This document shows positions 46,102 through 60,290 of a DNA stretch of 64,000 nucleotides, one piece after another. Position numbers and translations under genes: made by a program. Where the stretch lies: assembly GCA_023382455.1 (NCBI GenBank), contig JAHDVX010000012.1, positions 44,519 to 108,518 of the forward strand, in the 5' to 3' direction. How positions within the stretch are numbered: the stretch's first letter is position 1; each line of letters opens with the position of its first letter. The DNA comes from Flavobacteriales bacterium (GTDB lineage Bacteria > Bacteroidota > Bacteroidia > Flavobacteriales_F > PHOS-HE28). The notes below the pieces were generated by a model, which saw only the letters and a program-made list of their open reading frames with translations, had not been told where the DNA came from and made no database searches.

Positions 46102-47247
46102 GTGAAGTGGGCTCTGCGTATCCTGGTATTGCTCGCCGTGGTCGTGGGCGGGTCAGCGCTGGCATGGCACTGGGCCGGTCCTGGCCGCCAGCAATGGGTG
46201 AAGGACCAGGTGAAGATCCTGTTGAACCGTAAGCCGCAACGGGTGGGCGGGGCCGTGCCGGCGGCGGCCGTGCCGCTGGTGGAGGGCCTGGGCGTGAGCA
46301 CCGGCGATGAACCGCCGTTCTCCGTGGCATCGGGCCCTTGGTCCATGGTGCAGTACACGGAAGGTGACAAGGCCATCCGCCCTGATCTCCATTACACCTT
46401 CGAGCCCACGCCGGGTGCGGACAGCAGCCGGCTTTCCTCCGCTTGGGCGCATGGCGGCACCCATGCGTTCCGCATGGCCCCGGGGGATGAATATTCGCCG
46501 GCGATCCGGAGGCGGGCGGCGGATGTGGCCATCAAACTTTCCGCCGTGGACGTGGGCTTCTGGATGTGGACCCCGGCCCCGGCCACCCTGCTCACCGCCG
46601 TGGTGACCATTGACCGCAAGGGCAAGCAAATAGCTTGGTACGGCAAGGATCTGCCCGCGGACACGGCGGCAAGGACCGGTGTGCGGTTGAACGCCAGCTT
46701 CCTGATGGGCGACCTGGCCGTGGAGCCCGACGACATCCTTTCCGTCTACCTCTGGAAAAAAGGCGGCGGGGAAGCCTTCATCGACGATATGGACCTGTTC
46801 TTCCACAGCGCCGAGGTGCCCGGCCGGAAACTCGGGAAACCTCTGGCACTGGACAGCTTGGAAGCGGGCGGCCCCGTTCCCTTGACCTACGCCAAGCCCA
46901 CGGTCTCGGATATCCCGGTGGACACGGCGTGCTTCCGGGCCGGCCTGCCCGCATTGCCCACCACCCGCGAGGCCGTCCCCTTCGGCCGGTCCTCGCACGC
47001 GTGGCGCTTCGTTCCCGAGGAAGGCCTGGTCTGGTTGCAGGACACCGGGGGGAAGCCTTTGGGGTTGATTCGGCCCTGGTCGCCTGGCTCACGCAAGGAC
47101 ATCACCCACTTTGACCGCGTGGTGGCCAAAACAACCCCCGACGGGATCGTGGTGACCGGCTTCGACGTGGACCGCACCCACGGTGGTGAGCGTATCGCTG
47201 CTTCACCACGGCCTATCTCGCTCAGCATCACATGGCCCTCCGAATGA
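46102..47247 (+). CDS. Hypothetical membrane-anchored protein, first gene of a four-gene translationally coupled operon
   Basis: GTG start; N-terminal TM MKWALRILVLLAVVVGGSALA; overlaps the next gene by 16 nt. Confidence 0.55.
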   Translation: MKWALRILVLLAVVVGGSALAWHWAGPGRQQWVKDQVKILLNRKPQRVGGAVPAAAVPLVEGLGVSTGDEPPFSVASGPWSMVQYTEGDKAIRPDLHYTFEPTPGADSSRLSSAWAHGGTHAFRMAPGDEYSPAIRRRAADVAIKLSAVDVGFWMWTPAPATLLTAVVTIDRKGKQIAWYGKDLPADTAARTGVRLNASFLMGDLAVEPDDILSVYLWKKGGGEAFIDDMDLFFHSAEVPGRKLGKPLALDSLEAGGPVPLTYAKPTVSDIPVDTACFRAGLPALPTTREAVPFGRSSHAWRFVPEEGLVWLQDTGGKPLGLIRPWSPGSRKDITHFDRVVAKTTPDGIVVTGFDVDRTHGGERIAASPRPISLSITWPSE

Positions 47248-49118
47248 GAATGATCGCTTGGCTGCTGCCACTTCTGCTGGCCGCATGCGGCACCGGCACC
47301 GGCACCAACGCCATGGTGGAGGAATTCCATGTGCTGGACAATTGGGACGGCCGGAATGCGGAGGGCGTGAAATACATTGAACTCGACCACACGGAGGCCA
47401 TCGACAGCGGCTTCGTTGTTCCCTCCGTGCGCCAGGTGGATGGCGGGCGGTTCACGTTCACCTTCCGCGTGTCGGACCCCACGGGCAAGGGCCGGGCCTT
47501 CCGCTACAAGCTGTATTACCGCAACGAATCCTACAAGATGGAGGAAACGCGGCCGGACGGCAGCCAGCATCCCTTGGCGGAGGAGAACTTCTACGGCAGC
47601 TGGGAAAGCGCGGCCGAAGGCTTTCGCACCACACCGCGCACGGATGGCCTGGAGCCGTTGCGCGTCACCGATTCCTTCCGCATCCATGGGGACCCGCGCG
47701 ATGAGGACCGCTTCATGGTGGACGGTGTACGCAAGCGCTGGGCGCGGAACCCGCGTGTGGGCGAATACTCCTTCCTGCTGGTGGTGATGCCGGAGAATGC
47801 CTTCGAGGCGGCGCGGCTGCCGGAGAGCGTGGTGCGGATCGGTACCCGGGAGAACGGGCACTTCGTGGAGCCCTACTGGTATTTCCTCCACGGCCCGGGA
47901 TCGCGCCTGGGCGAGGTGTCCGTGCTCCTGGCCGCGGACTGTTTGAGGGTGGCCGCCATTCCGCCGCTGGGCGCGGGCATCTGGGTGGACGGATCCGATG
48001 CTCTCTCCACCGCGGCATACAGCGGTTCCTGCGGCAACAGTGAGGAGCTTCGCAAGGGTGCGGCCTTCTCCCAGTTCATCCACTACGTGGACGCCTCCAC
48101 GCGCTTCTCCAACATCCCCTTGATCGCCGATGTGCTCGGCAACGAGTACACGCCTGAGGACCATGATTACAACCGCGCCTTCTTCCCCGAGGGCCACATG
48201 GTCTCGCTTACGCCCATGACCACCAAGGCACCTTGCGAAACCGTCAGGTCCAACCCCGACAACAACACTATCGAGATCCACAACCCGGCCTCGCGGCCCG
48301 GTGACCTGCGCAAGGAGAACGTGGGCGTGCGGTCACGGCACGGCCTGATGTACGGCAAGTACTCCGTGAAGTGCAAGCTCACGCCCTTGCTGAACGATTC
48401 GGACATGTGGAACGGGCTCACCAACGCCATCTGGCTGATCTACCAAGGGGCGCCGGGGAACTATCGCCGCATCTGCGAAAAGGACGGCTACATGTCTGAC
48501 TACTACGGCGGTGACGCCGTGGAGCGCGTACCGCAAGTGGCCTATGCGGAGATCGACTTCGAGATCCTGAAGACCCCGCTCTACTGCCCTGACGCCACTT
48601 TCCCGCCGTTGCGGCCCCAACAGGTGGCGGTACCGGGGCAGCGAGCCAACTGGCAGCGCCCTTCGGATGGTGGCATCCCCAAGGGCATGATCACCGTGGC
48701 TTGCACCAACTGGGACATGGCCTGCCATTCACCGGTGGATTTCGCGGCGGGATGCAGGCCCATCGAACATGAGGGGCACACTTACCTGAGCCACCGCTGG
48801 GACGACAACTACCGCGCCATCACCCAGAAGAAGTACGAACCGGATGCCGAGCTGTTCCGTGGCGATCACTATTGGTTCCAGATCGACTGGCGGCCGGACC
48901 AGGTGATCTGGCGCATCGGGCCCGAGCTGGACCAACTGCGCGAGGTGGGCTACATGGACAGCACGGTCACCTCCATCAGCGATGTGCAGATGGAGCTGAT
49001 CGTCACCCAGGAGTTCCATAACACCAAGTGGTGGCCGGGCTCGCCATACGACCAAGGGTGCATTCCCTTTGCGGCAAAGGATTACACCGGCGTGATCCAG
49101 GACGTAGTGATCGAATGA
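47232..49118 (+). CDS. Lipoprotein with a C-terminal GH16-like (concanavalin-type glucanase) region
   Basis: Lipobox LLLAAC; EIDFE motif (GH16 ExDxE catalytic pattern) within YAEIDFEILK. Confidence 0.5.
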   Translation: MALRMRMIAWLLPLLLAACGTGTGTNAMVEEFHVLDNWDGRNAEGVKYIELDHTEAIDSGFVVPSVRQVDGGRFTFTFRVSDPTGKGRAFRYKLYYRNESYKMEETRPDGSQHPLAEENFYGSWESAAEGFRTTPRTDGLEPLRVTDSFRIHGDPRDEDRFMVDGVRKRWARNPRVGEYSFLLVVMPENAFEAARLPESVVRIGTRENGHFVEPYWYFLHGPGSRLGEVSVLLAADCLRVAAIPPLGAGIWVDGSDALSTAAYSGSCGNSEELRKGAAFSQFIHYVDASTRFSNIPLIADVLGNEYTPEDHDYNRAFFPEGHMVSLTPMTTKAPCETVRSNPDNNTIEIHNPASRPGDLRKENVGVRSRHGLMYGKYSVKCKLTPLLNDSDMWNGLTNAIWLIYQGAPGNYRRICEKDGYMSDYYGGDAVERVPQVAYAEIDFEILKTPLYCPDATFPPLRPQQVAVPGQRANWQRPSDGGIPKGMITVACTNWDMACHSPVDFAAGCRPIEHEGHTYLSHRWDDNYRAITQKKYEPDAELFRGDHYWFQIDWRPDQVIWRIGPELDQLREVGYMDSTVTSISDVQMELIVTQEFHNTKWWPGSPYDQGCIPFAAKDYTGVIQDVVIE

Positions 49119-51424
49119 TGATGAAGCACCGAGGTCTTTGGCTCACCCTTTTCCTGTCCGTGGGCCTTCTCGCCTTTTATTTCGGGGCCGTCCTACGATC
49201 GCCCGGCCGGTACATGTTCAATGCCGAAGGCGATGGCCTGAAGAACTATTTCTCCTTTGCTTGGCATGCGGAGCACGATACCTCCCTTACTACGTTCTCG
49301 GGGATGAACTATCCCTTCGGGGAGCACATCGACTATCCGGATGCGCAACCCTTGCAGAGCAACCTGTGGCGCGCAGTGGCCAAGGTGTGGCCAGGGGCCC
49401 TGCAACACACCGTTGCGGTGGTGAACCTGATGATGCTGTTCAGCATCGTGCTCTGCGCGGTATTCCTGTACCTGATCATGCGGGAGCTGGCCATGCCGGA
49501 CCTGGTGGCGGCCTTGTTCGCGGTCTTGATCTCCTTCCTGGCCCCGCAGGTGCTGCGTGGCACGCAGGCGCACTATGCACTGGCCTACGGATGTGCCATC
49601 CCGAGTGCCATGTGGGTGCTGCTGCGGCAATGGCGGAGCAGCCGCCCGTGGCGCTGGGCGGCCGGCATGGTCCTGTTGATCCTGTTCTGGCTGTTCACCC
49701 ACGTCTATCTGGGCTTCATATCGGCGGTATTGGTGCTGGCCACGGGCGCACTTGTCCTGGTATTCCGGGCCGGCGAGCGCCGCGCCGCGTGGGGCATGGT
49801 GGCCGCACCGCTGGCCGCATTCCTCTTGTTCTTCCTTTGGCAGCAGCTCACGGACACCCATACGGGCCGCACGCAGCATCCCACCGGGTTCTTCACGTAC
49901 CAGATGACCTGGTCCACGCTCTTGGCCCCCGATCCCCTCTTCGCCTCCTCCATTTGGACCAGGTTCATCGGGCTGCCCGTGTTCCGGTTGGCGGAAGGAT
50001 GGAACTTCATCGGCCTGGGAACGGAGCTGGTCGTGGTCGTCGTGCTGATCTTGTTGATGCGCGGCCTCGCGAAGGGCACCGCAGGCGAACTGTTCAATCG
50101 TGTGTTCCCCGCGAAACTGTTGTTGTTGCTGGGCGGCTCCCTGCTGCTCCTGGCCTTTGCATTCGGCCTTCCGTTCGATCCCTGGTGCAAGAAGTGCCTT
50201 TGGTATATCCCGACGCTGGGGCAGTTCCGTGCACCGGCTCGTTTCGGGTGGGCCTTCTATTTCGTCATCACTGTGTGGGCGGCACGCACGGCGTGGGTCC
50301 TGTATGACGGTGCCGCGCAAGGCCGGGCGCGCAAGGCCGCAGCGGTGCTGGTGGCCGTGGTGGCGGCCTTCTTTGTCACGGACATGCATGCCTTGGACAG
50401 CTACGTGGCCCGGCGGATCGTGGAGCAGCCCAACTACTTCGATCCGGAGCAGTTGCCGGCGGACATGCAGCCCATCTACCAGGCCGCCAAGCGGGTGGAT
50501 GCCCGGGCCATGGTCACCTTGCCATACTACCACAATGGCGGCGAGGAATACATGGTGCCTGCGGACGAGGCCGGCCTATTGATCGGCCAGGCCATGGCCC
50601 AGCTGACCGGCATACCCCTGATGAATTCGAGCTTCACGCGCACCGGCGTCGAGGAGGTGCGTGAGCTGATCCAGGCATTCGGACCGGATTGGTATCCCAA
50701 GGCGATGGCCGCCAGGTTCCAAGCCTCCGATACGATCCTGCTCATACTTTCCGGCAGCCTCTTGGGACCATACGACCAGGTCTTGGCCTCCCATGGCAGG
50801 GAGCTTGCCAAGGGCGGGCCGTACACCTTGCTGGCCACCACCGCGGGCGAGCTTTTTGCCGATAGGGCGGGCAGGTATGTGGCGCGCTTTGAAGCAAGCC
50901 GGGATACTCTTCATCAAAGTGGCGAATGGCTGTTCAGCAGGCCGGACACGTTCCTGTTCCGCAAGGATTACGATGATAGGCCCGCGACCCATGTGCGTTC
51001 GGGCTCCGGCGCATTCTCGGGCCTGAAGCATGATTTCAACCTGCTGGCGGAATTGCCGGTGGAGGCCATGGATACCGGGGTGACCTACTTGGCCTCATTC
51101 TGGTACTACAACCGCGGGCCCATGCGCAACCATGCTCTTGCGGGGATCGATGACCACGACCCGGTCCAGGGCACAGGTGCTTGGGACTACTATACCGATC
51201 CGCGTTTCGCGCGCACCATCGTGGGCGATTGGAGCTTGGTGGAATTGCCCTTCCGGAAAGGCGGCCCGGGCCACGAGCTGAAATTGTTCGTCCAAGGCGC
51301 GGATTTCTATCCGGACAGCATTTGGGTGGACGACCTCACCGTGCGGGTGGCCGATGTCGATGTGTACAAGGTGGATACGGTCGGGAACAGGCTCTGGTAT
51401 AACAACCACTGGATTGCTCCATGA
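49115..51424 (+). CDS. Large polytopic membrane protein (770 aa), putative GT-C-like glycosyltransferase/flippase-type component
   Basis: ATG overlaps the upstream stop (ATGA); >10 hydrophobic helices followed by a ~350-aa soluble C-terminal domain. Confidence 0.55.
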   Translation: MMMKHRGLWLTLFLSVGLLAFYFGAVLRSPGRYMFNAEGDGLKNYFSFAWHAEHDTSLTTFSGMNYPFGEHIDYPDAQPLQSNLWRAVAKVWPGALQHTVAVVNLMMLFSIVLCAVFLYLIMRELAMPDLVAALFAVLISFLAPQVLRGTQAHYALAYGCAIPSAMWVLLRQWRSSRPWRWAAGMVLLILFWLFTHVYLGFISAVLVLATGALVLVFRAGERRAAWGMVAAPLAAFLLFFLWQQLTDTHTGRTQHPTGFFTYQMTWSTLLAPDPLFASSIWTRFIGLPVFRLAEGWNFIGLGTELVVVVVLILLMRGLAKGTAGELFNRVFPAKLLLLLGGSLLLLAFAFGLPFDPWCKKCLWYIPTLGQFRAPARFGWAFYFVITVWAARTAWVLYDGAAQGRARKAAAVLVAVVAAFFVTDMHALDSYVARRIVEQPNYFDPEQLPADMQPIYQAAKRVDARAMVTLPYYHNGGEEYMVPADEAGLLIGQAMAQLTGIPLMNSSFTRTGVEEVRELIQAFGPDWYPKAMAARFQASDTILLILSGSLLGPYDQVLASHGRELAKGGPYTLLATTAGELFADRAGRYVARFEASRDTLHQSGEWLFSRPDTFLFRKDYDDRPATHVRSGSGAFSGLKHDFNLLAELPVEAMDTGVTYLASFWYYNRGPMRNHALAGIDDHDPVQGTGAWDYYTDPRFARTIVGDWSLVELPFRKGGPGHELKLFVQGADFYPDSIWVDDLTVRVADVDVYKVDTVGNRLWYNNHWIAP

Positions 51425-52692
51425 ACCTTGGTCGCGATTGGTCGCCTTGGCTGGCGCTTGTGGTTTTCCTCGCGGGCTTTCTTTCTTTTCTGGGGCACAA
51501 CGGCCACATCTTGGATGTCATGCTGGCGCACAACAGTGACCCCCGGGGTTATTACCAGTATCTCCCGGCAATCTTCTTGGACCACGACCTGCGCGGCATG
51601 CCCTACGTGCATGTACTCCCCAACGGGAACCACCTCAGTATGTTCAACATTGGCTTGGCCTACCTGTTGGCCCCGTTCTTTTTGGCGGCGCACGGGCTTT
51701 GCTTGGCCGGGTTGGCACCGGCGGACGGTTACTCGTGGCCCTACGCCGTGGCCGTAGGCTTGGCAGCATCCACCTATGCGGCCTGGGGATGCACGCTGGT
51801 GGCGAGGCCCTTGGGTAAGCGCTTCGGGACGCTGAACGCCTCCTTGGCGGTGCTGTTGCTCTTCGCCTGCACCAACCTGTACTTCTACACGGCCATGGAG
51901 CCCGGCATGAGCCATGTGTACTCCTTCTTCCTGTTCACCGTGCTACAGTGGGCCACCCTGCGCATGCGGGAGGCGCCGAAAGGGAGAACGTTGGTGCTGT
52001 TGGCGGTCACGTGGTCGGTGATCGTGCTGGTGCGGCCCTCGAACGGCATCGCAGGGCTGTTCCCGCTGCTCTATGGCACCACGGGGCCGCGTGGGGTGCG
52101 CGAGCGGCTGGCTTCGTGGGTTGCTGACTGGCGGGCGTTGGCTCTTGCCGTGTTTCTCGGGTTGCTGCCATGGATCCCCCAGCTTCTTTATTGGCGGTCG
52201 ATCACCGGCAGCCCCATCGTCTTTACCTACGGCACCATGGGCCAAGGCTTCCATTGGCTGTACCCGCGCCTGTGGGAAGTGCTGGCGCACCCTTGGAACG
52301 GCTGGTTCCTCTACTCGCCAATTATGCTGCCGGTGATGGCGGCCTTGTTGTGGATGGCCTTCAGGCGGACCGAAGGCGCACGTACCGTGCTGCTCCTCTG
52401 GCTGCTTGCCTGGTACATCATCGCCTCTTGGTGGTGCTGGTGGCTGGGCGGCGCGTTCGGGCACCGCGGCTTTGTGGAATACATGGCCTTCCTGGCCCTG
52501 CCTACCGCGTGGCTGGTCCAGCGTATCGCTTGGCGGAAACAGGCAGCCCGGGCGGCCGCTTGGGTGCTGGCGCTGCTCTTTGCCTGGGCCAACATCGGCC
52601 TCAGTTGGAACTACCTGTCCCCTTGGGACGGGCCGGAGTGGACGATGCAGAGCGTGCAACGGGAATACCTGCGCCTGCTCCCGCACAGGTGA
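51421..52692 (+). CDS. Polytopic membrane protein, GT-C-fold glycosyltransferase-like (ArnT/PMT type)
   Basis: ATGA overlap with the upstream gene; first loop HNSDPRGYYQYLPAIF resembles the ArnT D-E-x-R-Y loop-1 motif; ~11 TM helices. Confidence 0.55.
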   Translation: MNLGRDWSPWLALVVFLAGFLSFLGHNGHILDVMLAHNSDPRGYYQYLPAIFLDHDLRGMPYVHVLPNGNHLSMFNIGLAYLLAPFFLAAHGLCLAGLAPADGYSWPYAVAVGLAASTYAAWGCTLVARPLGKRFGTLNASLAVLLLFACTNLYFYTAMEPGMSHVYSFFLFTVLQWATLRMREAPKGRTLVLLAVTWSVIVLVRPSNGIAGLFPLLYGTTGPRGVRERLASWVADWRALALAVFLGLLPWIPQLLYWRSITGSPIVFTYGTMGQGFHWLYPRLWEVLAHPWNGWFLYSPIMLPVMAALLWMAFRRTEGARTVLLLWLLAWYIIASWWCWWLGGAFGHRGFVEYMAFLALPTAWLVQRIAWRKQAARAAAWVLALLFAWANIGLSWNYLSPWDGPEWTMQSVQREYLRLLPHR

Positions 52693-52754
52693 CGAAAATC
52701 GCCTGCCCCGTTTACCGCAATCCGTATTTCAAGATGCACCAGATGGCCCGCCGC

Positions 52755-55385
52755 TCATCTCTTGAACATGGCCAGATCTGCGGAGGGCACTTGATGGACT
52801 TTGCGCAACAAGACCGCCATATCCGACACGCCCTCCAAGACCCCCGCAGCATATTCCGGGCGTAGATCAAGTGCCATTTGCCCGAATTCATGCGGAAGGG
52901 TATAGGTGAGATCGAACGGACCCTGCCCCATGATCAGGCGCTGACGGTACATCTCGGTTCCTTGGTCCATCACGCGTAGGACCAAGTGCCACGTGCCACC
53001 TTCCTGCAGCAACCGGGCGTCCCCTGTCACACTGACCTCAAATAGCGGGACATCGTTACCTACATCAAACGGTATTGGCCCATCTTGGGCGTAGACTGCC
53101 GGATCCCAGCCACTTAGGGTCATGGTCCGGTTTTGCTGGCCATGGCCCGGTTCAACAGCTTGATCGGATGGGGTCAAGAGATCGGCAGCAAACACGGTAT
53201 CCGTGGTCCATTGCCTGGTCGCATCCTTCCTTTCAAACACCCAGACCGAGAACGGGGATGTATCATTCCAGCCGTCCATCCCTAAAAACATGCGTTGGAG
53301 GGTGAACGCGCCATCATCCAGGATCCTTTGTATCGGAATCGCCGATTCGTTCGGGCCGAAATGGGAATCCCAGACCAGTATGTCATGTTCGGCCAAACCG
53401 GCCCCCGGCCTGGACCAAGGCAATACGGACAGGTTCACGGCGCCGGTGCTATCCCAAGGGTCCTTGCCGGTAACGATCCCGAAGTATGGATATAGGTAGG
53501 CCACCCGTCCTCCGGGCCGCTCCAACCCCCGGACGTACGAGGCCGCGCGGTCCGTTTGCAACTGTTCCGCCACCATGACCGGCGGAAGAGGAACCCGGCC
53601 AAATACATCCTTGATGCCAAGTGGTAGCAACAGAAGCCAACAGCCTGCCGCAAATGCCAAGCGCACGGCTTTGCCAGGTGACTTTTTCAGGCCACTGATG
53701 GACGTGGATGCCACGCCAAGAATGAACAACACGCTAAGCGGTACCGTGGTTGCAAACACACGCAGATATCCGGCCGACCCCGAATGGCCGTTCCACCAGG
53801 CATAGCTGTGCAGGAACCAAATGGCAACCACCGGCAAACCGGTCAACACCAAGGTGTCCAACAGTGCCTTACGTTGCTCCTTGCGATGATGCCAAACGAA
53901 AGGCCATGCGAGGAAGGATGCCGTCAGTAGCATGAGAAGGGGCAGGCCGAGGATGTCGGGTGCCTGTTGCAGGAAATGGGACCAGTCACCATGGCCATAT
54001 TGGGTGTTCCCCAGATAGGGGTCTTCATGCAGGATCCATAGGAAGTCGCCATAGGCCAACCACGTGAAGACGGCATAGATGAAGGGTCCGCAGGCCAATA
54101 ATGGCAACTTTCGCCAATGCCCGTTCCAAGCGGCCCAAAGCGCCACAAACGGGAGAAGCCCGGCCGCCTCCGGCCTGGAGAATGGAAGAAGCGAGGCCAG
54201 AAGCATGCCCGCCGTGACCCTCCCCGATCGGAGAAGGCCGACCACGAGAACCGCCAAGAGCCCGAAAAGGGGCTCGGTCATGCCTGAATAGACCATAAAG
54301 AGGTACTGCGGCGAGATCAGCAGCAATACGGGAACCGCCCAACGTAGTACGGTCGCACTATCCGTGATATGGCGCATGATCACTACCATCGTGAACAAGG
54401 CAACCACGGCATTGAACAGGGCGAGCCCCCAAAAACCAAGTTGTGCGAAAGGCGAGGCCAGCAGCACGAACAAAGGCTTGGCCCAATTGTCCAGGAACAA
54501 GGAAGGGTGCTTCCAAGCGTGCAATGCCTGCAAGTAGTGCAATGCCCCATCGCCGATCTCAGGCTGGGCCGCGGTTGAAGCGCGTATGGCCACAAGTGCG
54601 GCCAAGGAGATCACGGCCGGGACCAAGGCGCCCCACGTTCCCCATCCGGATCGTAATGAACCTTGGCCCATTGCCTGCAATCCGTACTTGAGGATGCACC
54701 AAATGGCCCGGAAACCGTCCTTCCAGCCTATCTTTTTCCCTTCGGCGTATGTGCGGCCGTAGTAACTGATGCCGACCTCATAGATGCGGATGCCCTTGAC
54801 CCGCGCAAGCTTCGCGGTCACCTCGGGCTCAAAGCCGAACCGCTTTTCCTTCAGGTCCAAGCCTTGGGCAATGTCGGTGCGGATCAGCTTGTAGCAGGTC
54901 TCCATGTCGGTCAGGTTCAAGTTGTTGAACGTGTTGGAGAGCTGGGTGAGGAACTTGTTGCCGATGCTGTGCCAGAAGAAGAGGATGCGGTGCGGATGGT
55001 GGCCCATGAAGCGCGAGCCGTAGACCACGTCGGCGAAGCCTTCCACCACGGGGCGCAACAGGTCGTTGTATTCGCGGGGATCGTATTCCAGGTCGGCATC
55101 CTGCACGATCAGGTATTCGCCGGTGGCTTCCTTGATGCCGCGGTGGATGGCCGCGCCCTTGCCCATGTTGTGCGGCTGCTGGATGAAGCGGATGTCCAGG
55201 CCGGGATTGGCGGCCATGTAGCGCTCCACTGCGGCCACGGTCCCGTCCGTACTCCCGTCGTTCACGATGATCACCTCCTTCTGGATGCCATCGCGCAATT
55301 GCACGTCCCGCACCTTGTCCAGGATCAGGTGGATGGTGCGCTCCTCATTGAAGGCGGGGATGATGATGGACAGCTTGGTAAGCAT
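52755..55385 (-). CDS. Fusion protein: N-terminal GT2 polyprenol-phosphate sugar synthase (Dpm1/ArnC-like), then a ~12-TM GT-C-like membrane domain and a C-terminal soluble domain
   Basis: MLTKLSIIIPAFNEE..VNDGSTDGT..VQDADLEYDP GT2 motifs, then >10 hydrophobic helices and a ~300-aa C-terminal domain. Confidence 0.7.
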   Translation of the reverse strand: MLTKLSIIIPAFNEERTIHLILDKVRDVQLRDGIQKEVIIVNDGSTDGTVAAVERYMAANPGLDIRFIQQPHNMGKGAAIHRGIKEATGEYLIVQDADLEYDPREYNDLLRPVVEGFADVVYGSRFMGHHPHRILFFWHSIGNKFLTQLSNTFNNLNLTDMETCYKLIRTDIAQGLDLKEKRFGFEPEVTAKLARVKGIRIYEVGISYYGRTYAEGKKIGWKDGFRAIWCILKYGLQAMGQGSLRSGWGTWGALVPAVISLAALVAIRASTAAQPEIGDGALHYLQALHAWKHPSLFLDNWAKPLFVLLASPFAQLGFWGLALFNAVVALFTMVVIMRHITDSATVLRWAVPVLLLISPQYLFMVYSGMTEPLFGLLAVLVVGLLRSGRVTAGMLLASLLPFSRPEAAGLLPFVALWAAWNGHWRKLPLLACGPFIYAVFTWLAYGDFLWILHEDPYLGNTQYGHGDWSHFLQQAPDILGLPLLMLLTASFLAWPFVWHHRKEQRKALLDTLVLTGLPVVAIWFLHSYAWWNGHSGSAGYLRVFATTVPLSVLFILGVASTSISGLKKSPGKAVRLAFAAGCWLLLLPLGIKDVFGRVPLPPVMVAEQLQTDRAASYVRGLERPGGRVAYLYPYFGIVTGKDPWDSTGAVNLSVLPWSRPGAGLAEHDILVWDSHFGPNESAIPIQRILDDGAFTLQRMFLGMDGWNDTSPFSVWVFERKDATRQWTTDTVFAADLLTPSDQAVEPGHGQQNRTMTLSGWDPAVYAQDGPIPFDVGNDVPLFEVSVTGDARLLQEGGTWHLVLRVMDQGTEMYRQRLIMGQGPFDLTYTLPHEFGQMALDLRPEYAAGVLEGVSDMAVLLRKVHQVPSADLAMFKR

Positions 55386-55484
55386 GCAATTGCGTTGTTT
55401 CCATCGCTGTACGCACGGCCCGCGATCAACCACGGCAAACGTAAAGCGCCGATCTCATAATAATGGATGGAAGATGATGCCTCT

Positions 55485-57098
55485 TTACCGCAGAGGGTGA
55501 AGCCGGTAAACATTAACCCCATTTACTTCACCGATCAGGTCTTGCAGGTACGGACCGGTAACAGGGTCCCATGTCCATTTGGGGTCCACACAAAGGAAAT
55601 ATTTCGCGCCATTGGCGATCAACATGTCTATCCATCCGGGTTCATTCAGGTGGTTGCCATAATTATTCCATCCCCGATTTCCCATGAAAAGGAACGACGC
55701 GTTGATCGTCCAGTCGTCGGCAAAGATGACACGGTCGTCAGGCTGTATCCCCAACGCCCTCAACGCGGGTTGGATATGCACCACGGGTTCCAGGCTCCAA
55801 TAGTTCAATCCGTTCCAATGAGGCAGCTCCGCCTCATGGTATATGGGCCAAAGTTCCCCGGCACCCATGGTTCCCGAGGTATCGTAGCGCATCTCCAAGT
55901 TTTGTGCGGTGTAAGCCACGTTGTAAGCCAGTAATCCCGCCATGGCCAACCGGGCCCAACGGCCGTTCCAGATTTTCGGGTAGTTCCGCTTCAGTACCCA
56001 CAGAAAGCTCACCAGGAGCACCGCGAACGTGATCGTTGGGTTGATGAAGTAATAGTCGTGGTTGTTCAAGGCCGGGAACCAGAATAGGACGAACATCACC
56101 GTGCCCACGAACAATAAGGCATTCAAGACAACGACCTGCTTCGGTAACGCACGAACCTTGACCAACAAGGCTCCCAAGGCAACCGCGAACAGGGCCCAAA
56201 CCGAGGTGTCGAAGATCTGGAACACGACAATGTGTCGACCGATGTCCCACGCCTCCCTTCTTGCGGCGGGGTCCATGTCCCAGATAGGCCAGAGGTTGTT
56301 GAAGGTATACTTCCCGCCATGCTGGCCATTGTACCAGGCGGCGTATGCATACCACGCATATACGGCCAGGAACCCGATGGCCATCGTGGCCCATTCTCGC
56401 CGGCTTCCCTTGAACAAGGACCACTGTGCGGTTGCGTTCCCACGGTACAGCGTGCTTAAGGCCAGCAGCCCGGCCAAGGCGACCAAGCTCATGCCCGCCG
56501 TTACCTTCAACAACATGCCCAAGCTGAAGAAGAAAACGGCCCATGTCCAATACTTGTGCTGCCCCTCGGTGGCGTATCGGACGGTGTACCACCAACCGAT
56601 AAGCGCCAAGTCGAAGGCGGGGACGTCCGTAAGGAACCCGATCCCGAAATAGACGATCGCGGGCGAGGCGTAGAAGAGCAATGCGACGCAGATCGCCCAG
56701 AAAGCGCTTTGGAGGATCCTTTTCACGGAAGCGAACAGCGCGAGCGTGCCCAGGAAGTGCAACACAAAGCCGATCAGCCGATAGATGAACAGATCCGGCC
56801 CGGTGATGCGCCAGATCATGCCCACCAGGTAGTAGATCAGGGGAAATTCCCCGGCGGTCTTGCCGGTTGTATACCCGTCCGAAAAAAGATTGTGGATCGT
56901 CGGCTGGAAAAAGTTCCAGGTGCTGTCGTAATAGTTCCAGGCAAGCGAGATGCAATCAGCTTGGCGCCATAGATGATGGGGCTGGGGGAGCAGGTGCAAC
57001 ACGCGGCCCGCCTCGTATGCGGAGGACATGGCGATGAATAAGGCCACGAGCCACCACACTGTCTTGGACTGCGAGGTGGGCTTGCGGACCCGGTTCAT
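55485..57098 (-). CDS. Polytopic membrane protein (537 aa), GT-C-like family candidate
   Basis: ~12 hydrophobic helices; C-terminal soluble domain. Confidence 0.55.
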   Translation of the reverse strand: MNRVRKPTSQSKTVWWLVALFIAMSSAYEAGRVLHLLPQPHHLWRQADCISLAWNYYDSTWNFFQPTIHNLFSDGYTTGKTAGEFPLIYYLVGMIWRITGPDLFIYRLIGFVLHFLGTLALFASVKRILQSAFWAICVALLFYASPAIVYFGIGFLTDVPAFDLALIGWWYTVRYATEGQHKYWTWAVFFFSLGMLLKVTAGMSLVALAGLLALSTLYRGNATAQWSLFKGSRREWATMAIGFLAVYAWYAYAAWYNGQHGGKYTFNNLWPIWDMDPAARREAWDIGRHIVVFQIFDTSVWALFAVALGALLVKVRALPKQVVVLNALLFVGTVMFVLFWFPALNNHDYYFINPTITFAVLLVSFLWVLKRNYPKIWNGRWARLAMAGLLAYNVAYTAQNLEMRYDTSGTMGAGELWPIYHEAELPHWNGLNYWSLEPVVHIQPALRALGIQPDDRVIFADDWTINASFLFMGNRGWNNYGNHLNEPGWIDMLIANGAKYFLCVDPKWTWDPVTGPYLQDLIGEVNGVNVYRLHPLR

Positions 57099-57111: not shown

Positions 57112-57768
57112 TCACACCACCATCTCCTTCACCCCTTCCACCACCACCAGCCTCCCCTCCGTCTTGGCCTTCACCTCGTCCACGGTCACGCCGGGGGCGA
57201 GCTCCTTGAGCACGAAGGCGCCATCGGTGATGTCGAACATGCCCAAGTCGGTGAGGACACGTTTCACGCATCCCACACCGGTTAGCGGGAGGCTGCAGCG
57301 CTTCAGCAGCTTGCTGTCGCCGTGCTTGTTGGTGTGCATCATGCACACGATGATGTTCTGTGCGCTGGCCACCAGGTCCATGGCGCCGCCCATGCCCTTC
57401 ACCATCTTGCCGGGGATCTTCCAGCTGGCGATGTCGCCGTTCTCGGCCACCTCCATGGCGCCCAGCACGGTGAGGTCCACCTTTTGTCCGCGGATCATGG
57501 CGAAGCTGGTGGCGCTGTCGAAGATGGCCGCCCCGGCCTTCAGGGTCACGGTCTGCTTGCCTGCGTTGATCAGGTCGGCGTCTTCCTCGCCGTCGTACGG
57601 GAACTCGCCCATGCCCAGGATGCCGTTCTCGCTTTGCAGCGTCACGTCCATGCCCGGTGGGATGTGGTTGGCCACCAAGGTGGGTATGCCGATGCCGAGG
57701 TTCACGTAGAAGCCGTCCTGCAGTTCACGCGCGATGCGCTTCGCCATTTGGTTCTTGTCCAAAGCCAT
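57112..57768 (-). CDS. scoB: 3-oxoacid CoA-transferase subunit B
   Basis: SENG active-site motif (LQSENGILGMG). Confidence 0.9.
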   Translation of the reverse strand: MALDKNQMAKRIARELQDGFYVNLGIGIPTLVANHIPPGMDVTLQSENGILGMGEFPYDGEEDADLINAGKQTVTLKAGAAIFDSATSFAMIRGQKVDLTVLGAMEVAENGDIASWKIPGKMVKGMGGAMDLVASAQNIIVCMMHTNKHGDSKLLKRCSLPLTGVGCVKRVLTDLGMFDITDGAFVLKELAPGVTVDEVKAKTEGRLVVVEGVKEMVV

Positions 57769-57786
57769 GGTCCGGGGTCGTCTGGT

Positions 57787-59586
57787 TCAAGGTTTGTGTC
57801 CTTCCTTCCAAGGGCGGACAAGATACACCCGGAGCCTTCCCTCGCTGGTGTATGACTGGTGTAGCTGGTTCCACAGGTAGGCCACCACCTCCCCGGCATC
57901 GGAAGGCACCTCGGGTATGCGGCGCACCCCTTGGAGGCCAATGCCGCGGCCCGGGTCGCGAAGGAATTGGATGAGCATGAAATCGCGGTGAGGCGGCAAG
58001 CCGGCTGCGATCGTTTCCACCACTATGACGCCGGTCATGGGCTCGTGTTCCGGCTTCAACGCGAGGTCCAGCTCGATCCGGTAGGCATTCCCCTTCATGG
58101 CATCCGTGGGCGGGCGCCAGAGTTCGCGCAACTCGGCATTGCCGTGCACGGGTGGCAGGATGCTGTCCAGTACCAAGGTGGAGGTCTCGGCTTGCGTTCG
58201 CCCGTACAAGGCTGCCCGCTCCGTGCCGGCCAAGGCCAGTAACCGGTAACCCGGCGGCACTTCGGACCGTTGCGGGTCCAGCAGGAGCAGGTCACCGCCG
58301 CCAAGGGGCCATTGGGTGATGTCCACGGCGTTCAACCGCAAGCCGTGCTCGCGCTGGCCGAAGCCCCAGCAGGCGATCATTTGGTGGTAGCCGCCGATGG
58401 TGGGAAGGCTGGCGGTCCGGTTTTTCCAGTCGTTCGCGGCCCGGTACAGGGGGGCGGGAATGGCCTGCTCGGGCCAGTACATGGTGGCGTTCAGGTTGGC
58501 CGTGGCTACGGCGTGCACGGGCAGGGCCAGCAGGGGAAGCGCGGCCCACTGCCAACGTTGCCGGGCCTGGGCCACCCGTTCCACCGCGAAGGCGAACAGG
58601 AGCAGGAACGGGGTCACCCAGTGCAGCACGGTGCGGTCCTCGGGGAAGGGTGTGCCCTTCCAATGGTGCAGCACCACGCGGGCCAGGCCATCGGCCCAAA
58701 GGAGGCCGGCGCACAGCACCGGGACCCACGCGTGCATGCCGCGCGGCGCGGTGCGGAAGGCTGCCGCGGCCACGGCGGTGCAGGCGATGAGCACCAGCAG
58801 GACCAGCAGGGGTGCGGCCGGGGCATCGGTGCCCGCGATCAGTGGCATCAAGGAAGCCACGGATCCGCGGACCACCCCCAAGGTGTTGCCGTAATACAGG
58901 CAGTCGCTGCGGGACAGCCACTCGGCGGTGGCCACGGCGGCCAGGAAAGGCATGGCACCCAGGGCGACCCAAAGGCCGGCCTGCCGGATCGCAGCCTTGG
59001 TGGGAAGCAGGCGCCAAGGCGAACACGCGGCCGTGAAGGCGAGGACCGCGGCCCAGGCGACCAGCAGGTTCAGGGAGGCCCAACCGGCGCAGGCCATGGC
59101 CAGCAGGGTGATGGCCAGCCCCTTGTTGCCCGGCCTCACCGACCAAGTGGAAAGATGGTACAGCGCCATGCACCAGAAGGCCATGGCCAGGCCGTAGCCG
59201 CGGAAGAGCGAGAAGAAGTCCAGCAGGAACGGGGTGAGCAGCAGGGCGGCCCACAGGCAGCGGCGTACGGGGCCGTGCCGCAGGTGCGTTCCCCATTTCC
59301 AGACGTGGAAGGCATAAAGGGGGAAGGCCAGGAGGGAAGGCAGGCGCAAGGCCCATGCGTGCATGCCGAACAGTTTCCAGCCGAGCCAGCCCAGGGCCGT
59401 TGCCAGCACGTGGTTGCCGGCGTCGGGCGGCGCCAGGAAGGGCAGGAAGTCCGAGGTTTCCACAAAGCGGAAGAAGGCCATGGCCTCATCGTGCACCACG
59501 GGCACCAGCACGGTACGTGCCGCCGCGTAGGCGAAGACCACGGTGGAAAGGGCGATGAACACCACGCGCTCCGCCCGGGCATCCAT
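57787..59586 (-). CDS. GT-C-fold glycosyltransferase (family 39/83-like, PMT/ArnT type) membrane protein
   Basis: DE motif in the first extracytoplasmic loop (LVPVVHDEAMAFF) after TM1; ~11 TM helices. Confidence 0.6.
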   Translation of the reverse strand: MDARAERVVFIALSTVVFAYAAARTVLVPVVHDEAMAFFRFVETSDFLPFLAPPDAGNHVLATALGWLGWKLFGMHAWALRLPSLLAFPLYAFHVWKWGTHLRHGPVRRCLWAALLLTPFLLDFFSLFRGYGLAMAFWCMALYHLSTWSVRPGNKGLAITLLAMACAGWASLNLLVAWAAVLAFTAACSPWRLLPTKAAIRQAGLWVALGAMPFLAAVATAEWLSRSDCLYYGNTLGVVRGSVASLMPLIAGTDAPAAPLLVLLVLIACTAVAAAAFRTAPRGMHAWVPVLCAGLLWADGLARVVLHHWKGTPFPEDRTVLHWVTPFLLLFAFAVERVAQARQRWQWAALPLLALPVHAVATANLNATMYWPEQAIPAPLYRAANDWKNRTASLPTIGGYHQMIACWGFGQREHGLRLNAVDITQWPLGGGDLLLLDPQRSEVPPGYRLLALAGTERAALYGRTQAETSTLVLDSILPPVHGNAELRELWRPPTDAMKGNAYRIELDLALKPEHEPMTGVIVVETIAAGLPPHRDFMLIQFLRDPGRGIGLQGVRRIPEVPSDAGEVVAYLWNQLHQSYTSEGRLRVYLVRPWKEGHKP

Positions 59587-59591
59587 GCGGT

Positions 59592-60290
59592 TCAGGAGCG
59601 TTGCCGCACGGTGCGCTGCTCGATGCGTTTCTCGTACTTCTCCCCTTGGAAGATGCGGTGCACGAAAATGCCCGGCGTGTGGATCTGGTCGGGATCGAGC
59701 TCGCCGGGTTGCACCAGGTGTTCCACTTCGGCGATGGTGATGTTGCCGGCCATGGCCATCATGGGGTTGAAGTTGCGCGCCGTATGGCGGTACACCAGGT
59801 TGCCGTTGGTATCGCCCTTCCAGGCCTTCACCAGGCTGAAGTCGGCGCGCAGCCAGTGCTCCATCACGTACATCTTGCCATCGAACTCGCGGGTTTCCTT
59901 GCCCTCGGCCACCTCGGTGCCGTAGCCTGTGGGGGTGAAGAAGGCCGGAATGCCCGCGCCGCCCGCACGGCAGCGCTCGGCGAGGGTGCCTTGCGGGGTG
60001 AGGTCCACCTCCAGCTCGCCGGAAAGCAGTTGCCGCTCAAACTCCGCGTTCTCCCCCACGTAGCTGGCGATCATCTTCTTGATCTGCCGCTGCTTCAGGA
60101 GAAGCCCCAGCCCGAAGTCGTCCACCCCCGCATTGTTGCTGATGCAGGTGAGGCCTTTCACGCCGCTGCGCACCAGGGCTGCGATCAGGTTCTCGGGGAT
60201 GCCGCAGAGGCCGAAGCCGCCCACCATCAATGTCATGCCGTCGCGGAGGCCTTCCAGGGCCGCGTCCGCGTTGCTTACCACCTTGTTCAT
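59592..60290 (-). CDS. scoA: 3-oxoacid CoA-transferase subunit A
   Basis: [36 protein letters not shown] canonical N-terminus. Confidence 0.9.

What the first reader, a model, noticed from the sequence alone, without database searches (positions are those of the whole stretch)
52755..55385. Natural fusion of a lipid-sugar donor synthase (GT2) to a GT-C-type transferase domain
Residues 1-240 carry full Dpm1/ArnC-like GT2 motifs (IIPAFNE, NDGSTDGT, DADLEYD). They are followed by at least 10 hydrophobic helices and a ~300-aa C-terminal soluble domain. Fusing the cytoplasmic donor-synthesis step to a membrane domain of GT-C size would make one polypeptide both produce and use the lipid-linked sugar, which is unusual.
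Basis: partly seen in the sequence, partly recalled or inferred. Interest (0 to 1): 0.6.

Follow-up and report, generated by a model that had tools for sequence, protein, structure and literature searches.

The report
Sugar-donor synthase fused to membrane glycosyltransferase
In this Flavobacteriales genome, two neighbouring genes have merged into one 876-residue protein: one likely loads a sugar onto a membrane lipid carrier inside the cell, and the other likely transfers such sugars outside the membrane. The merger is rare but has happened more than once, and it links an uncharacterised enzyme family to its probable donor supplier.

Summary
ORF 52755-55385 (-) encodes 876 aa. Residues 1-237 form a GT2 domain whose closest solved relatives are polyprenyl-phosphate sugar synthases (DPMS, GtrB, ArnC). 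A short linker follows, then about 11 transmembrane helices and a 280-aa C-terminal domain. With a 48-sequence alignment, residues 234-876 model at pLDDT 90.9.

The membrane part belongs to a Bacteroidota family with no Pfam match for this protein. Almost all members are stand-alone proteins of 460-640 aa. The GT2 is normally a stand-alone 237-aa protein without transmembrane helices, 86-95% identical across Flavobacteriales. In close relatives the two genes are adjacent, in some cases in frame and separated by one stop codon. Four fused forms were found, and each one's nearest relative is unfused. None of 79 GTDB species loci is fused.

The locus also encodes a PMT_2 GT-C and a distant paralogue of the GT-C part, but no recognisable flippase. 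This is a lineage-specific fusion within a Gtr/Arn-type pathway, analogous to M. tuberculosis Ppm1. Catalysis, sugar and acceptor are inferred, not shown. Interest is moderate.

The parts
52755..55385 (-). Fusion gene, 876 codons plus stop (stop codon at 52755-52757)
   Evidence: ORF and translation. Identical protein P0001 found on 6 contigs from independent samples.
54675..55385 (-). GT2 (GT-A fold) domain, residues 1-237; DAD metal-binding motif at residues 96-98 (55092-55100); ends in the helix ...FRAIWCILKYGL
   Evidence: PF00535 E 1.6e-31. Best PDB relatives are DPMS, GtrB and ArnC. It is 86-95% identical to more than 120 clusters of stand-alone ~237-aa GT2 proteins that end exactly at KYGL.
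54651..54674 (-). Junction/linker, residues 238-245 (QAMGQGSL). It includes ATG 54666-54668 (M240), which aligns with the start Met of stand-alone homologues.
   Evidence: Junction comparison with L003, L005, L008, L010 and L092 and alignment A2.
53595..54650 (-). GT-C-fold membrane domain, residues 246-597, about 11 TM helices. Invariant residues are D279 (54549-54551), H283, W301, K303, P304, T370, E371, P401, R404, E406, Y457 and H526.
   Evidence: AF2 pLDDT above 90 across the domain. Foldseek top 13 hits are all GT-C enzymes. Invariant columns in 48 homologues. Inferred topology places these residues on the periplasmic face.
53166..53594 (-). Alpha/beta domain predicted to be periplasmic, residues 598-740, with invariant W672-D673
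   Evidence: AF2 secondary structure and conservation. The Foldseek alignments to ArnT and PglB span about 500-584 columns, longer than the 352-residue membrane domain.
52758..53165 (-). C-terminal beta-sandwich, residues 741-876; residues 741-768 are poorly modelled
   Evidence: AF2 beta strands over 781-867. Weak jelly-roll matches. Absent from the ~460-480-aa family members.
52704..52750 (-). Relic of a GT2 3' end (reads RAIWCILKYGL-R-stop), 4 nt after the fusion gene's stop. It forms a direct repeat with 54664-54710 (81% identical, 1960 nt apart).
   Evidence: tblastn against the window, sequence inspection and the repeat finder family D1. Present in the same-species loci L006 and L007. 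Absent from L002, L003, L010 and L092; none was listed for L008.
55485..57098 (-). Upstream gene on the same strand: 537-aa PMT_2-family GT-C
   Evidence: PF13231 E 2e-9. The same position is conserved in L002, L006-L009.
57787..59586 (-). 599-aa polytopic protein lying between the two CoA-transferase subunit genes; a distant paralogue of the fusion's GT-C part
   Evidence: hhalign A2 vs A3: probability 96%, E 1.5e-9, 456 aligned columns. First-loop motif VVHDEAMAFF.
47232..52692 (+). Convergent conserved gene block: a 628-aa putative lipoprotein (47232-49118), a ~770-aa DUF6311-like membrane protein (49115-51424) and a 423-aa 12-TM protein (51421-52692)
   Evidence: ORFs and hydropathy. Synteny in L001, L008, L009 and L092. 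DUF6311 is recorded in precomputed annotation for the orthologues. My own Pfam scan found nothing.

Best explanation
This is a genuine, expressed-frame fusion of two genes that normally sit side by side in one glycosylation operon of Flavobacteriales.

The N-terminal domain (residues 1-237) is a DPMS/GtrB/ArnC-type GT2 and faces the cytoplasm. It is inferred to transfer a sugar from a nucleotide sugar to polyprenyl phosphate. In its usual stand-alone form it has no transmembrane helix, only a C-terminal helix.

The rest of the protein is a GT-C-fold glycosyltransferase of a Bacteroidota family not covered by Pfam or CAZy-type models. It has about 11 TM helices, N-terminus in and C-terminus out. 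Its invariant D279, H283 and K303 (first outside loop), E371, R404, E406 and H526 are all predicted at the periplasmic face. An alpha/beta domain and a beta-sandwich follow, both predicted to be periplasmic. This part is inferred to take the flipped polyprenyl-P-sugar and transfer the sugar to an unknown periplasmic or outer-leaflet acceptor.

The fusion arose when the single stop codon between in-frame neighbours was lost (window ...KYGL-QA-MGQG; L008 ...KYGL-stop-V-MDG). It tethers the TM-less synthase to the membrane at 1:1 stoichiometry next to a consumer of its product.

The GT2 is the only copy of its subfamily in the window. It probably also supplies the neighbouring PMT_2 GT-C and the 599-aa paralogue.

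Shown: architecture, fold, conservation, origin from adjacent genes, recurrence. Inferred: both catalytic activities, shared donor, topology, benefit of the fusion. Unknown: sugar, acceptor, flippase.
For: - GT2 identity: Pfam match and motifs. Closest solved relatives are DPMS, GtrB and ArnC.
- Homologues 50-60% identical in the GT2 domain carry a GtrA/DPMS 4-TM domain, as in archaeal DPMS.
- GT-C fold of residues 246-740: high-confidence model whose significant hits (E <= 0.001) are exclusively GT-C enzymes.
- Nineteen invariant residues across 48 homologues are retained in the fused protein. The charged ones cluster in loops predicted to be periplasmic.
- The GT2 part is still 92-95% identical to the closest stand-alone orthologues, so constraint has not relaxed.
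- The nearest relatives have separate GT2 and GT-C genes in the same synteny, with gaps of 4-62 nt. In L003/L005 and L008 the two are in frame with one stop codon between them.
- Four fused proteins (P0001, P0008, P0204, P0254) each have unfused nearest relatives. P0008's is P0009 at 75% identity. This argues for independent fusions.
- Of 79 GTDB species loci, 13 have the GT2 immediately adjacent and 7 more have it within 4 kb.
- The locus holds further GT-C proteins: PMT_2 and the paralogue g599.
Against: - No enzymatic data exist, and the sugar and acceptor are unknown.
- GT2 families are functionally diverse, and every NCBIfam equivalog score is far below its cutoff.
- 59 of 79 family loci have no such GT2 within 4 kb, so the family does not strictly depend on a neighbouring synthase.
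- No GtrA- or Wzx-type flippase was detected between 33 and 64 kb, so one required step is unaccounted for.
- The window protein itself hits no GT-C Pfam model. A profile of the family finds no PDB sequence. GT-C status therefore rests on a predicted structure.
- The full-length model is poor in the GT2/TM1 region because of a misaligned input, so nothing can be said about contacts between the domains.
- The retained in-frame ATG (M240) leaves open separate translation of the GT-C part.
Confidence: 0.7

Rival explanations
1. Anchor or activator only. The membrane domain has lost or never had transferase activity in the fused protein. It serves to hold and activate the TM-less GT2 at the membrane, as Ppm1 domain D1/Ppm2, GacJ/WpsB or DPM3 do for their synthases. 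The sugar-lipid would then be used only by other GT-C proteins of the locus.
For: - The stand-alone GT2 lacks TM helices, so it needs a membrane partner.
- Known precedents are fused in some species and split in others: Ppm1 in PMC3485146, and GacJ-GacI fusions with an active WpsB-WpsA fusion in PMC10821137.
- Other GT-C genes are present to consume the donor.
Against: - All 19 family-invariant residues, including the first-loop Asp and the TEP and RPE motifs, are intact in the fused protein.
- A 640-aa GT-C with two folded C-terminal domains predicted to be periplasmic is far more than an anchor.
- Anchoring and catalysis are not mutually exclusive.
Confidence: 0.12
2. Same fusion, different chemistry. 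The GT2 is not a polyprenyl-phosphate monosaccharide synthase. It would instead be a cytoplasmic GT2 that elongates a lipid-linked or other glycan. The fused GT-C would use a donor made elsewhere, or act as a polymerase or ligase on a larger lipid-linked glycan.
For: - GT2 is a very broad family.
- All NCBIfam matches are below their cutoffs and include EPS, PgaC and WcaA-type enzymes.
- Many close GT2 homologues are fused to methyltransferase domains rather than membrane domains.
Against: - The best full-length matches are DPMS and AglJ-type dolichyl/polyprenyl-P hexose synthases, covering residues 4-219 and 5-234.
- Relatives carry GtrA/DPMS TM domains.
- The GT2 repeatedly sits next to, or is fused to, GT-C proteins, which by definition use polyprenyl-linked donors.
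Confidence: 0.13
3. Artefact or pseudogene. The fused frame would result from a sequencing or assembly error, or from a recent inactivating mutation, and would have no functional meaning.
For: - The fusion differs from relatives essentially by the absence of one stop codon.
- The locus shows signs of rearrangement: a relic of a GT2 3' end lies downstream.
- For P0008, the closest unfused relative has the two genes in different frames 4 nt apart, so an indel error could mimic a fusion there.
Against: - The identical 876-aa product was called on 6 contigs from independent projects and assemblers.
- The open frame is uninterrupted for 2.6 kb, and both halves keep conserved residues.
- Three further fused lineages exist.
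Confidence: 0.03

Closest known systems
Three-component periplasmic glycosylation systems (GtrA/GtrB/Gtr-type; ArnC/ArnE-F/ArnT; GacI-J/GacK/GacL, WpsA-B/WpsG/WpsJ)
   Same: Both pair a cytoplasmic GT2 that makes polyprenyl-P-monosaccharide with a GT-C that uses it outside the membrane, encoded in one locus (established knowledge; PMC10821137). The closest solved relatives match this pairing: DPMS, GtrB and ArnC for the GT2, and ArnT, ALG12 and ALG9 for the membrane part.
   Different: Here the GT2 and the GT-C are one polypeptide, and no flippase homologue was found nearby. The GT-C belongs to a family with no Pfam match for this protein. The locus has several GT-C-like genes for a single synthase.
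Mycobacterium tuberculosis Ppm1 (Rv2051c), two-domain polyprenyl-P-mannose synthase
   Same: A TM-less DPMS-like GT2 is fused to a polytopic membrane protein in one species, while relatives encode the two as adjacent, interacting ORFs (M. smegmatis ppm2/ppm1) (PMC3485146). The split-versus-fused pattern is the same as between the window and L003/L008.
   Different: In Ppm1 the membrane domain is N-terminal, has six TM segments, and enhances the synthase rather than acting as a GT-C transferase. Here the membrane domain is C-terminal and has a GT-C fold with conserved catalytic-type residues.
GacJ-GacI / WpsB-WpsA
   Same: A ~230-aa GT2 without TM helices needs a membrane partner. Natural GacJ-GacI fusions exist, and an engineered WpsB-WpsA fusion is active (PMC10821137).
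   Different: The partner there is a small 3-TM activator fused N-terminally, and a fusion in the opposite order (WpsA-WpsB) was inactive. Here the GT2 is N-terminal and the partner is a 640-aa GT-C.
Pyrococcus furiosus DPMS (5mlz) and GtrB (5ekp)
   Same: These are the best sequence matches for residues 4-219 and share the DAD and GSR(F/Y) motifs. Relatives of the window's GT2 carry the same GtrA/DPMS 4-TM domain.
   Different: DPMS and GtrB carry their own 4 or 2 TM helices. The window's GT2 subfamily is usually TM-less.
ArnT (5f15) and ALG12/ALG9 (9s6t, 9s6s), GT-C enzymes
   Same: Fold match with E 1e-7 to 1e-5 and TM up to 0.56. An acidic residue sits in the first outside loop, and the domain after the last TM helix is predicted to be periplasmic.
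   Different: Sequence identity is only 11-13%. There are no Pfam PMT_2, PMT or GT87 hits for this protein and no profile hit to any PDB sequence. It has an extra C-terminal beta-sandwich and an N-terminal GT2.

Membership tests
GT2 polyprenyl-phosphate glycosyltransferases (DPMS/GtrB/ArnC type) | GT-A-fold GT2 domain with a DXD metal-binding motif | tested here: met
   PF00535 E 1.6e-31 over residues 6-172. D96-A-D98 seen in the translation.
GT2 polyprenyl-phosphate glycosyltransferases (DPMS/GtrB/ArnC type) | Closest characterised relatives are polyprenyl-P sugar synthases across the whole catalytic domain | tested here: met
   5mlz DPMS E 2.5e-14 over residues 4-219, then GtrB and ArnC. AglJ is the best NCBIfam hit (95.7 bits), but far below its equivalog cutoff of 325.
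GT2 polyprenyl-phosphate glycosyltransferases (DPMS/GtrB/ArnC type) | Membrane association through interface helices and/or TM helices | tested here: inconclusive
   The stand-alone orthologues have no TM helix and end in the helix at residues 221-237. In the window protein the fused GT-C supplies the anchor. The GT2 second half is poorly modelled.
GT2 polyprenyl-phosphate glycosyltransferases (DPMS/GtrB/ArnC type) | Forms polyprenyl-monophosphate-sugar from an NDP-sugar | not testable with these tools
   Requires a biochemical assay.
GT-C glycosyltransferase superfamily | Polytopic membrane core with the GT-C fold | tested here: met
GT-C glycosyltransferase superfamily | Conserved acidic residue in the first extracytoplasmic loop | tested here: met
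   D279 is invariant in 48 homologues, within the GDGxxHY motif between TM1 and the next TM helix. Its periplasmic location is inferred from an N-terminal cytoplasmic GT2 and the K/R distribution.
GT-C glycosyltransferase superfamily | Uses a polyprenyl-(P or PP)-linked sugar donor | not testable with these tools
   Inferred from fold and from fusion or adjacency to the GT2.
PMT_2 / ArnT-like (GT83/GT39) or GT87 families | Significant match to the family profile | tested here: not met
   No Pfam hit for residues 234-876 even at E up to 10. There is only a faint NCBIfam AZOBR_p60025 hit (E 1.6e-4, 21 bits against a cutoff of 150). A few distant homologues carry PF09594, and one fused relative carries a weak PF02366 hit. 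I therefore treat it as an unclassified GT-C family.
Three-component (Gtr/Arn-type) glycosylation system | Dedicated flippase (GtrA, ArnE/F or Wzx type) encoded with the GT2 and the GT-C | tested here: not met
   No such Pfam family among the ORFs scanned between 33 and 64 kb. ORFs shorter than 90 aa were not scanned, and the flippase could be encoded elsewhere in the genome.
Ppm1-type fused synthase | Synthase fused in some genomes and split into adjacent ORFs in relatives | tested here: met
   Fused in the window and L002. Split in L003-5, L008-10 and L092.
Ppm1-type fused synthase | Membrane partner is an Lnt-like/Ppm2 domain located N-terminal to the synthase | tested here: not met
   The partner here is C-terminal and has a GT-C fold.

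The most novel reading that the evidence does not exclude
The fused protein is a self-contained make-and-use glycosylation unit. The GT-C membrane domain, or the interface it forms with the tethered GT2, would also provide the route by which the polyprenyl-P-sugar crosses the membrane. That would explain why no flippase gene accompanies this conserved multi-GT-C locus. The locus as a whole (one highly conserved synthase plus three to five GT-C-like proteins and a lipoprotein) would build a so far undescribed periplasmic or outer-membrane glycan of Flavobacteriales from a single lipid-linked monosaccharide.
Probability: 0.1. Interest if true: 0.8.

Novelty: new variant of a known kind. Interest (0 to 1): 0.4.

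Why it matters
- **A functional link for an unannotated family.** The fusion, which recurs independently, ties a widespread Bacteroidota GT-C family to a specific, extremely conserved polyprenyl-P-sugar synthase. The family has 330 relatives among GTDB species genomes and no Pfam model. That gives a concrete starting hypothesis for a conserved nine-gene envelope-glycosylation module in Flavobacteriales.
- **A useful experimental object.** A natural single-chain synthase plus transferase fixes stoichiometry and orientation. It lets one ask whether donor synthesis, flipping and use are physically coupled. The identity of the flippase for polyprenyl-P-monosaccharides remains open for many systems.
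- **Limits.** If the fusion merely anchors the synthase, it is one more Ppm1-like case of modest interest.

Tried and rejected
- **Full-length AF2 with mixed alignment A1.** MAFFT placed the N-termini of stand-alone GT-C homologues onto the GT2 region. Residues 97-301 therefore modelled poorly. The model was not used for the GT2 part or for domain contacts. I re-ran with the clean alignment A2.
- **Profile of the GT-C family against PDB sequences.** No hit even at E up to 10.
- **Pfam on the membrane part and on neighbours g628, g798, g423 and g599.** Nothing found, although precomputed annotation lists DUF6311 for g798 orthologues.
- **hhalign of the GT-C family against the g423 and g798 families.** No signal from very shallow alignments. 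Their GT-C nature stays unproven.
- **Apparent 799-aa 'GT-C-GT2' ORF in L027.** This is a high-GC shadow extension, not a fusion.
- **Literature searches.** Searches for described GT2-GT-C fusions, DUF6311 and AZOBR_p60025 found nothing specific. The library is limited to open-access papers, so absence of a description is not proven.
- **GTG start at 55433.** Judged unlikely, because all homologues start at the MLTK/MxxxLSIIIPA position.
Full report
**1. Observation**

The minus strand carries an open frame from 52755 to 55433. The ATG at 55385 gives an 876-residue protein that begins MLTKLSIIIPAFNEE.

The quoted motifs are present: IIPAFNE at 8-14, NDGSTDGT at 42-49 and DADLEYD at 96-102. Pfam finds only GT2 (PF00535, residues 6-172, E 1.6e-31). 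Hydropathy shows 10-11 hydrophobic segments between residues 247 and 597, followed by about 280 non-hydrophobic residues.

The identical protein (P0001, annotated 'MAG: glycosyltransferase family 2 protein [Flavobacteriales bacterium]') is encoded on six contigs from JGI, Logan and NCBI assemblies. The fused frame is therefore real.

**2. The GT2 half**

By sequence, the closest solved structures are:
- Pyrococcus dolichyl-phosphate mannose synthase (5mlz, E 2.5e-14, aligned over residues 4-219)
- a GT2 family glycosyltransferase (6yv7)
- the polyisoprenyl-phosphate glucosyltransferase GtrB (5ekp)
- ArnC

NCBIfam ranks the dolichyl-phosphate hexose enzyme AglJ first, with PgfS, PpgS and ArnC among the lower hits. 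All are far below their equivalog cutoffs, so the sugar cannot be named.

A database search with residues 1-250 gave a surprise. More than 120 clusters of stand-alone proteins of about 237 aa are 86-95% identical to this domain, all from Flavobacteriales or Bacteroidota MAGs. They end exactly at ...FRAIWCILKYGL, which is residue 237. The normal form of this enzyme is therefore a small GT2 without any transmembrane helix, under very strong constraint.

In the exhaustive representative search, GT2 domains 50-70% identical to this one occur in four forms:
- alone
- with a 4-TM GtrA/DPMS domain (about 370 aa, the archaeal DPMS layout)
- with methyltransferase domains
- in seven representatives, with a polytopic domain of 6-9 predicted TM helices: P0192 with PMT_2, P0254 with a weak PMT hit, plus P0204, P0195, P0198, P0199 and P0277

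**3. The membrane half**

A search with residues 240-876 found 70 homologues. Almost all are stand-alone proteins of 450-640 aa with no Pfam annotation. A few carry PF09594 (GT87) or names such as ArnT or RgtA/B/C/D-like. Only P0001 itself and P0008 (850 aa) have a GT2 in front.

The 48-sequence alignment A2 shows 19 invariant positions. In full-length numbering they include:
- D279 and H283, in the motif E-x-GDGxxHY
- W301, K303 and P304 (WGKP)
- T370 and E371 (TEP)
- P401, R404 and E406 (PFxRPE)
- Y457, H526, W672 and D673

AlphaFold2 on this alignment gave a confident model (pLDDT 90.9, pTM 0.90). It shows a helical bundle over residues 246-597, an alpha/beta domain over about 598-740 and a beta-sandwich over about 780-870.

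Foldseek against the PDB returned only GT-C glycosyltransferases in the first 13 places:

| Hit | E-value | Note |
|---|---|---|
| ALG12 (9s6t) | 1.4e-7 | |
| ArnT (5f15) | 1.5e-6 | TM 0.55 on the target |
| ALG9, AftD, EmbB/EmbC, STT3, PglB | down the list | |

Later hits are weak jelly-roll matches to the C-terminal sandwich. Sequence identity to these enzymes is 10-14%. A profile of the family finds no PDB sequence, and Pfam finds nothing in this protein. It is thus a GT-C by fold but belongs to no curated family.

I combined the AF2 helices with the cytoplasmic N-terminal GT2 and the clusters of Lys/Arg at alternate helix ends. This gives 11 TM helices with the N-terminus inside and the C-terminal domains outside. 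The invariant charged residues then sit in, or at the edge of, periplasmic loops. This is the arrangement expected for a GT-C active site. The topology is an inference, not a measurement.

**4. Origin of the fusion**

The neighbourhood is conserved:
- CoA-transferase A
- a 600-aa membrane protein
- CoA-transferase B
- a PMT_2 GT-C
- the GT2
- the GT-C family member
- then, convergently: a ~420-aa 12-TM protein, a ~770-aa DUF6311 protein, a ~625-aa protein, a ~400-aa protein and an RNase H-like exonuclease

In the nearest relatives of the window's GT-C part (P0002 at 56% identity; P0003-P0005 at 48-50%), the loci fetched for P0002 and P0004 show GT2 and GT-C as separate genes 27-62 nt apart.

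In L003/L005 and L008 the two genes are in the same frame with a single stop codon between them:
- L003: ...KYGLFA*AVPMVTK
- L008: ...KYGL*VMDGAAARSMFREWG
- window: ...KYGLQAMGQGSLRSGWGTWG

M240 aligns with the homologues' start Met. Loss of one stop codon therefore suffices to make the fusion.

P0008's closest relative, P0009 (75% identical), is also unfused. There the GT2 stop and the GT-C start are 4 nt apart in different frames. P0204 and P0254 are fused members whose nearest relatives are unfused too. This argues for at least three or four independent fusion events.

Among the 79 GTDB species-representative loci analysed (the 80 best-matching were kept; one had no family ORF):

| GT2 position relative to the GT-C gene | Loci |
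|---|---|
| Fused | 0 |
| Immediately upstream | 10 |
| Immediately downstream | 3 |
| Within 4 kb | 7 |
| None within 4 kb | 59 |

One apparent 799-aa fusion (L027) was a high-GC shadow ORF.

**5. An unexpected relic**

A 47-nt direct repeat brackets the GT-C-coding part: 54664-54710 and 52704-52750, 81% identical. The downstream copy starts 4 nt after the fusion gene's stop and reads RAIWCILKYGL-R-stop. That is the last 11 codons of a GT2 gene with its stop codon.

It is present in the same-species contigs L006 and L007. It is absent from L002, L003, L010 and L092, and none was listed for L008. All four nucleotide differences within the 11 codons are synonymous. This suggests the relic was part of a functional GT2 gene until recently. 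Both gene orders, GT2 then GT-C and GT-C then GT2, exist among relatives.

Alternatively, the relic is a copy of the ancestral unfused junction. I could not decide between these. Either way the locus has been rearranged in this lineage.

**6. Mechanism**

The best-supported reading is a Gtr/Arn-type pathway in which two components have become one chain:
- The cytoplasmic GT2 charges polyprenyl phosphate with a sugar.
- The lipid-linked sugar is flipped by an unidentified factor.
- The GT-C domain transfers the sugar to a periplasmic or outer-leaflet acceptor, using its first-loop Asp and neighbouring conserved residues.
- The two C-terminal domains are candidates for acceptor binding.

The stand-alone GT2 has no TM helix, so it must dock on something. 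The fusion provides a permanent anchor and 1:1 co-localisation with a consumer.

There are precedents. M. tuberculosis Ppm1 is fused, whereas M. smegmatis has interacting Ppm2 and Ppm1 (PMC3485146). GacJ-GacI and WpsB-WpsA involve a TM-less GT2 that needs a small membrane partner, with natural fusions known (PMC10821137).

The window has only one copy of this GT2 but several candidate consumers: the PMT_2 protein upstream and the 599-aa protein between the CoA-transferase genes. The latter is a distant paralogue of the GT-C part across the membrane, periplasmic and sandwich regions (hhalign probability 96%, E 1.5e-9). The DUF6311 and 12-TM proteins may be further GT-C-like enzymes, but that was not demonstrated. 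No flippase family was found in the 33-64 kb region.

**7. Rivals**

- **Anchor-only role for the membrane domain.** Weakened by the full retention of the invariant residues and by the large domains predicted to be periplasmic.
- **A GT2 with different chemistry.** Possible, because all curated-family scores are sub-threshold. It is disfavoured by the DPMS-type matches and the repeated pairing with GT-C proteins.
- **Artefact.** Excluded for practical purposes by independent assemblies and other fused lineages.

**8. Novelty and score**

The components and the logic of the pathway are known. The fusion of a polyprenyl-P-sugar synthase to a GT-C is present in databases in several forms, but I found no description of it in the literature searched. 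That library holds only open-access papers.

The GT-C family itself is uncurated. The conserved multi-GT-C module with a 90%-conserved synthase is uncharacterised.

I rate this a new variant of a known kind, with moderate interest (0.4). It is a useful Rosetta-stone link and a good experimental handle, not a new principle. That would change if the fused unit turns out to couple synthesis, translocation and transfer.

Noticed in passing
window 52704-52750 and 54664-54710: A 47-nt direct repeat (81% identical, 1960 nt apart) brackets the GT-C-coding segment. The downstream copy is a relic of a GT2 3' end with its own stop codon (RAIWCILKYGL-R-stop). It differs from the functional copy only by synonymous changes within the 11 codons. 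It is present in the same-species contigs L006 and L007 but not in other lineages.
   Followed up: partly
window 57112-60290 (-): A 599-aa GT-C-like membrane protein gene (57787-59586) is wedged between the two subunit genes of a CoA-transferase (59592-60290 and 57112-57768). The same insertion occurs in L002 and L003, and as two tandem copies in L008.
   Followed up: partly
window 1-8799 (-): A giant open frame of more than 2,930 codons runs off the left end of the window. It is rich in Thr, Ala, Gly and Asn and has ~90-aa repeats (…PAPxVNAGxDQxxCxNN…WSGGxGxYxP…YTPxxxEIAxGxVxLTLT…), so it looks like a large repetitive surface adhesin. It explains the strong GC and AT skew of the first 8 kb. 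It also explains a 2,065-aa shadow ORF on the + strand (322-6519) with no Pfam hit.
   Followed up: partly
window 54675-55385 versus 52758-54668: The two halves show very different constraint. The GT2 part is 86-95% identical to orthologues across many Flavobacteriales MAGs. The adjacent or fused GT-C part is only 30-56% identical in the same genomes.
   Followed up: partly
window 55386-55484 (-): The 99-nt gap between the PMT_2 gene and the fusion gene contains TACGTTTG about 50 nt upstream of the ATG. This fits the Bacteroidota -7 promoter consensus TAnnTTTG (from my own knowledge), so the fusion gene may have its own promoter.
   Followed up: no
window 46102-52692 (+): A convergent block of four genes (381 aa with an N-terminal anchor, a 628-aa putative lipoprotein, a ~770-aa DUF6311-like protein and a 423-aa 12-TM protein) has 4-nt ATGA-type overlaps at 49115-49118 and 51421-51424. 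It is syntenic with the GT2/GT-C genes in L001, L008 and L092. None of the four has a Pfam match in my scans.
   Followed up: partly
L001 9846-11323: In one relative the gene order is reversed (GT-C then GT2), and a second, different GT2 (252 aa) follows directly. The module's gene order is therefore not fixed.
   Followed up: no
whole window: G+C is 58-69% throughout, with third-codon-position GC of 0.7-0.95. This is unusually high for Flavobacteriales. All close relatives are uncultured MAGs, many of them from activated-sludge or freshwater samples.
   Followed up: no
window 36718-37716 (-): A second, unrelated GT2 gene (332 aa, 28% identical over 92 aa to the fusion's GT2) lies 15 kb away, outside the conserved module.
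   Followed up: no
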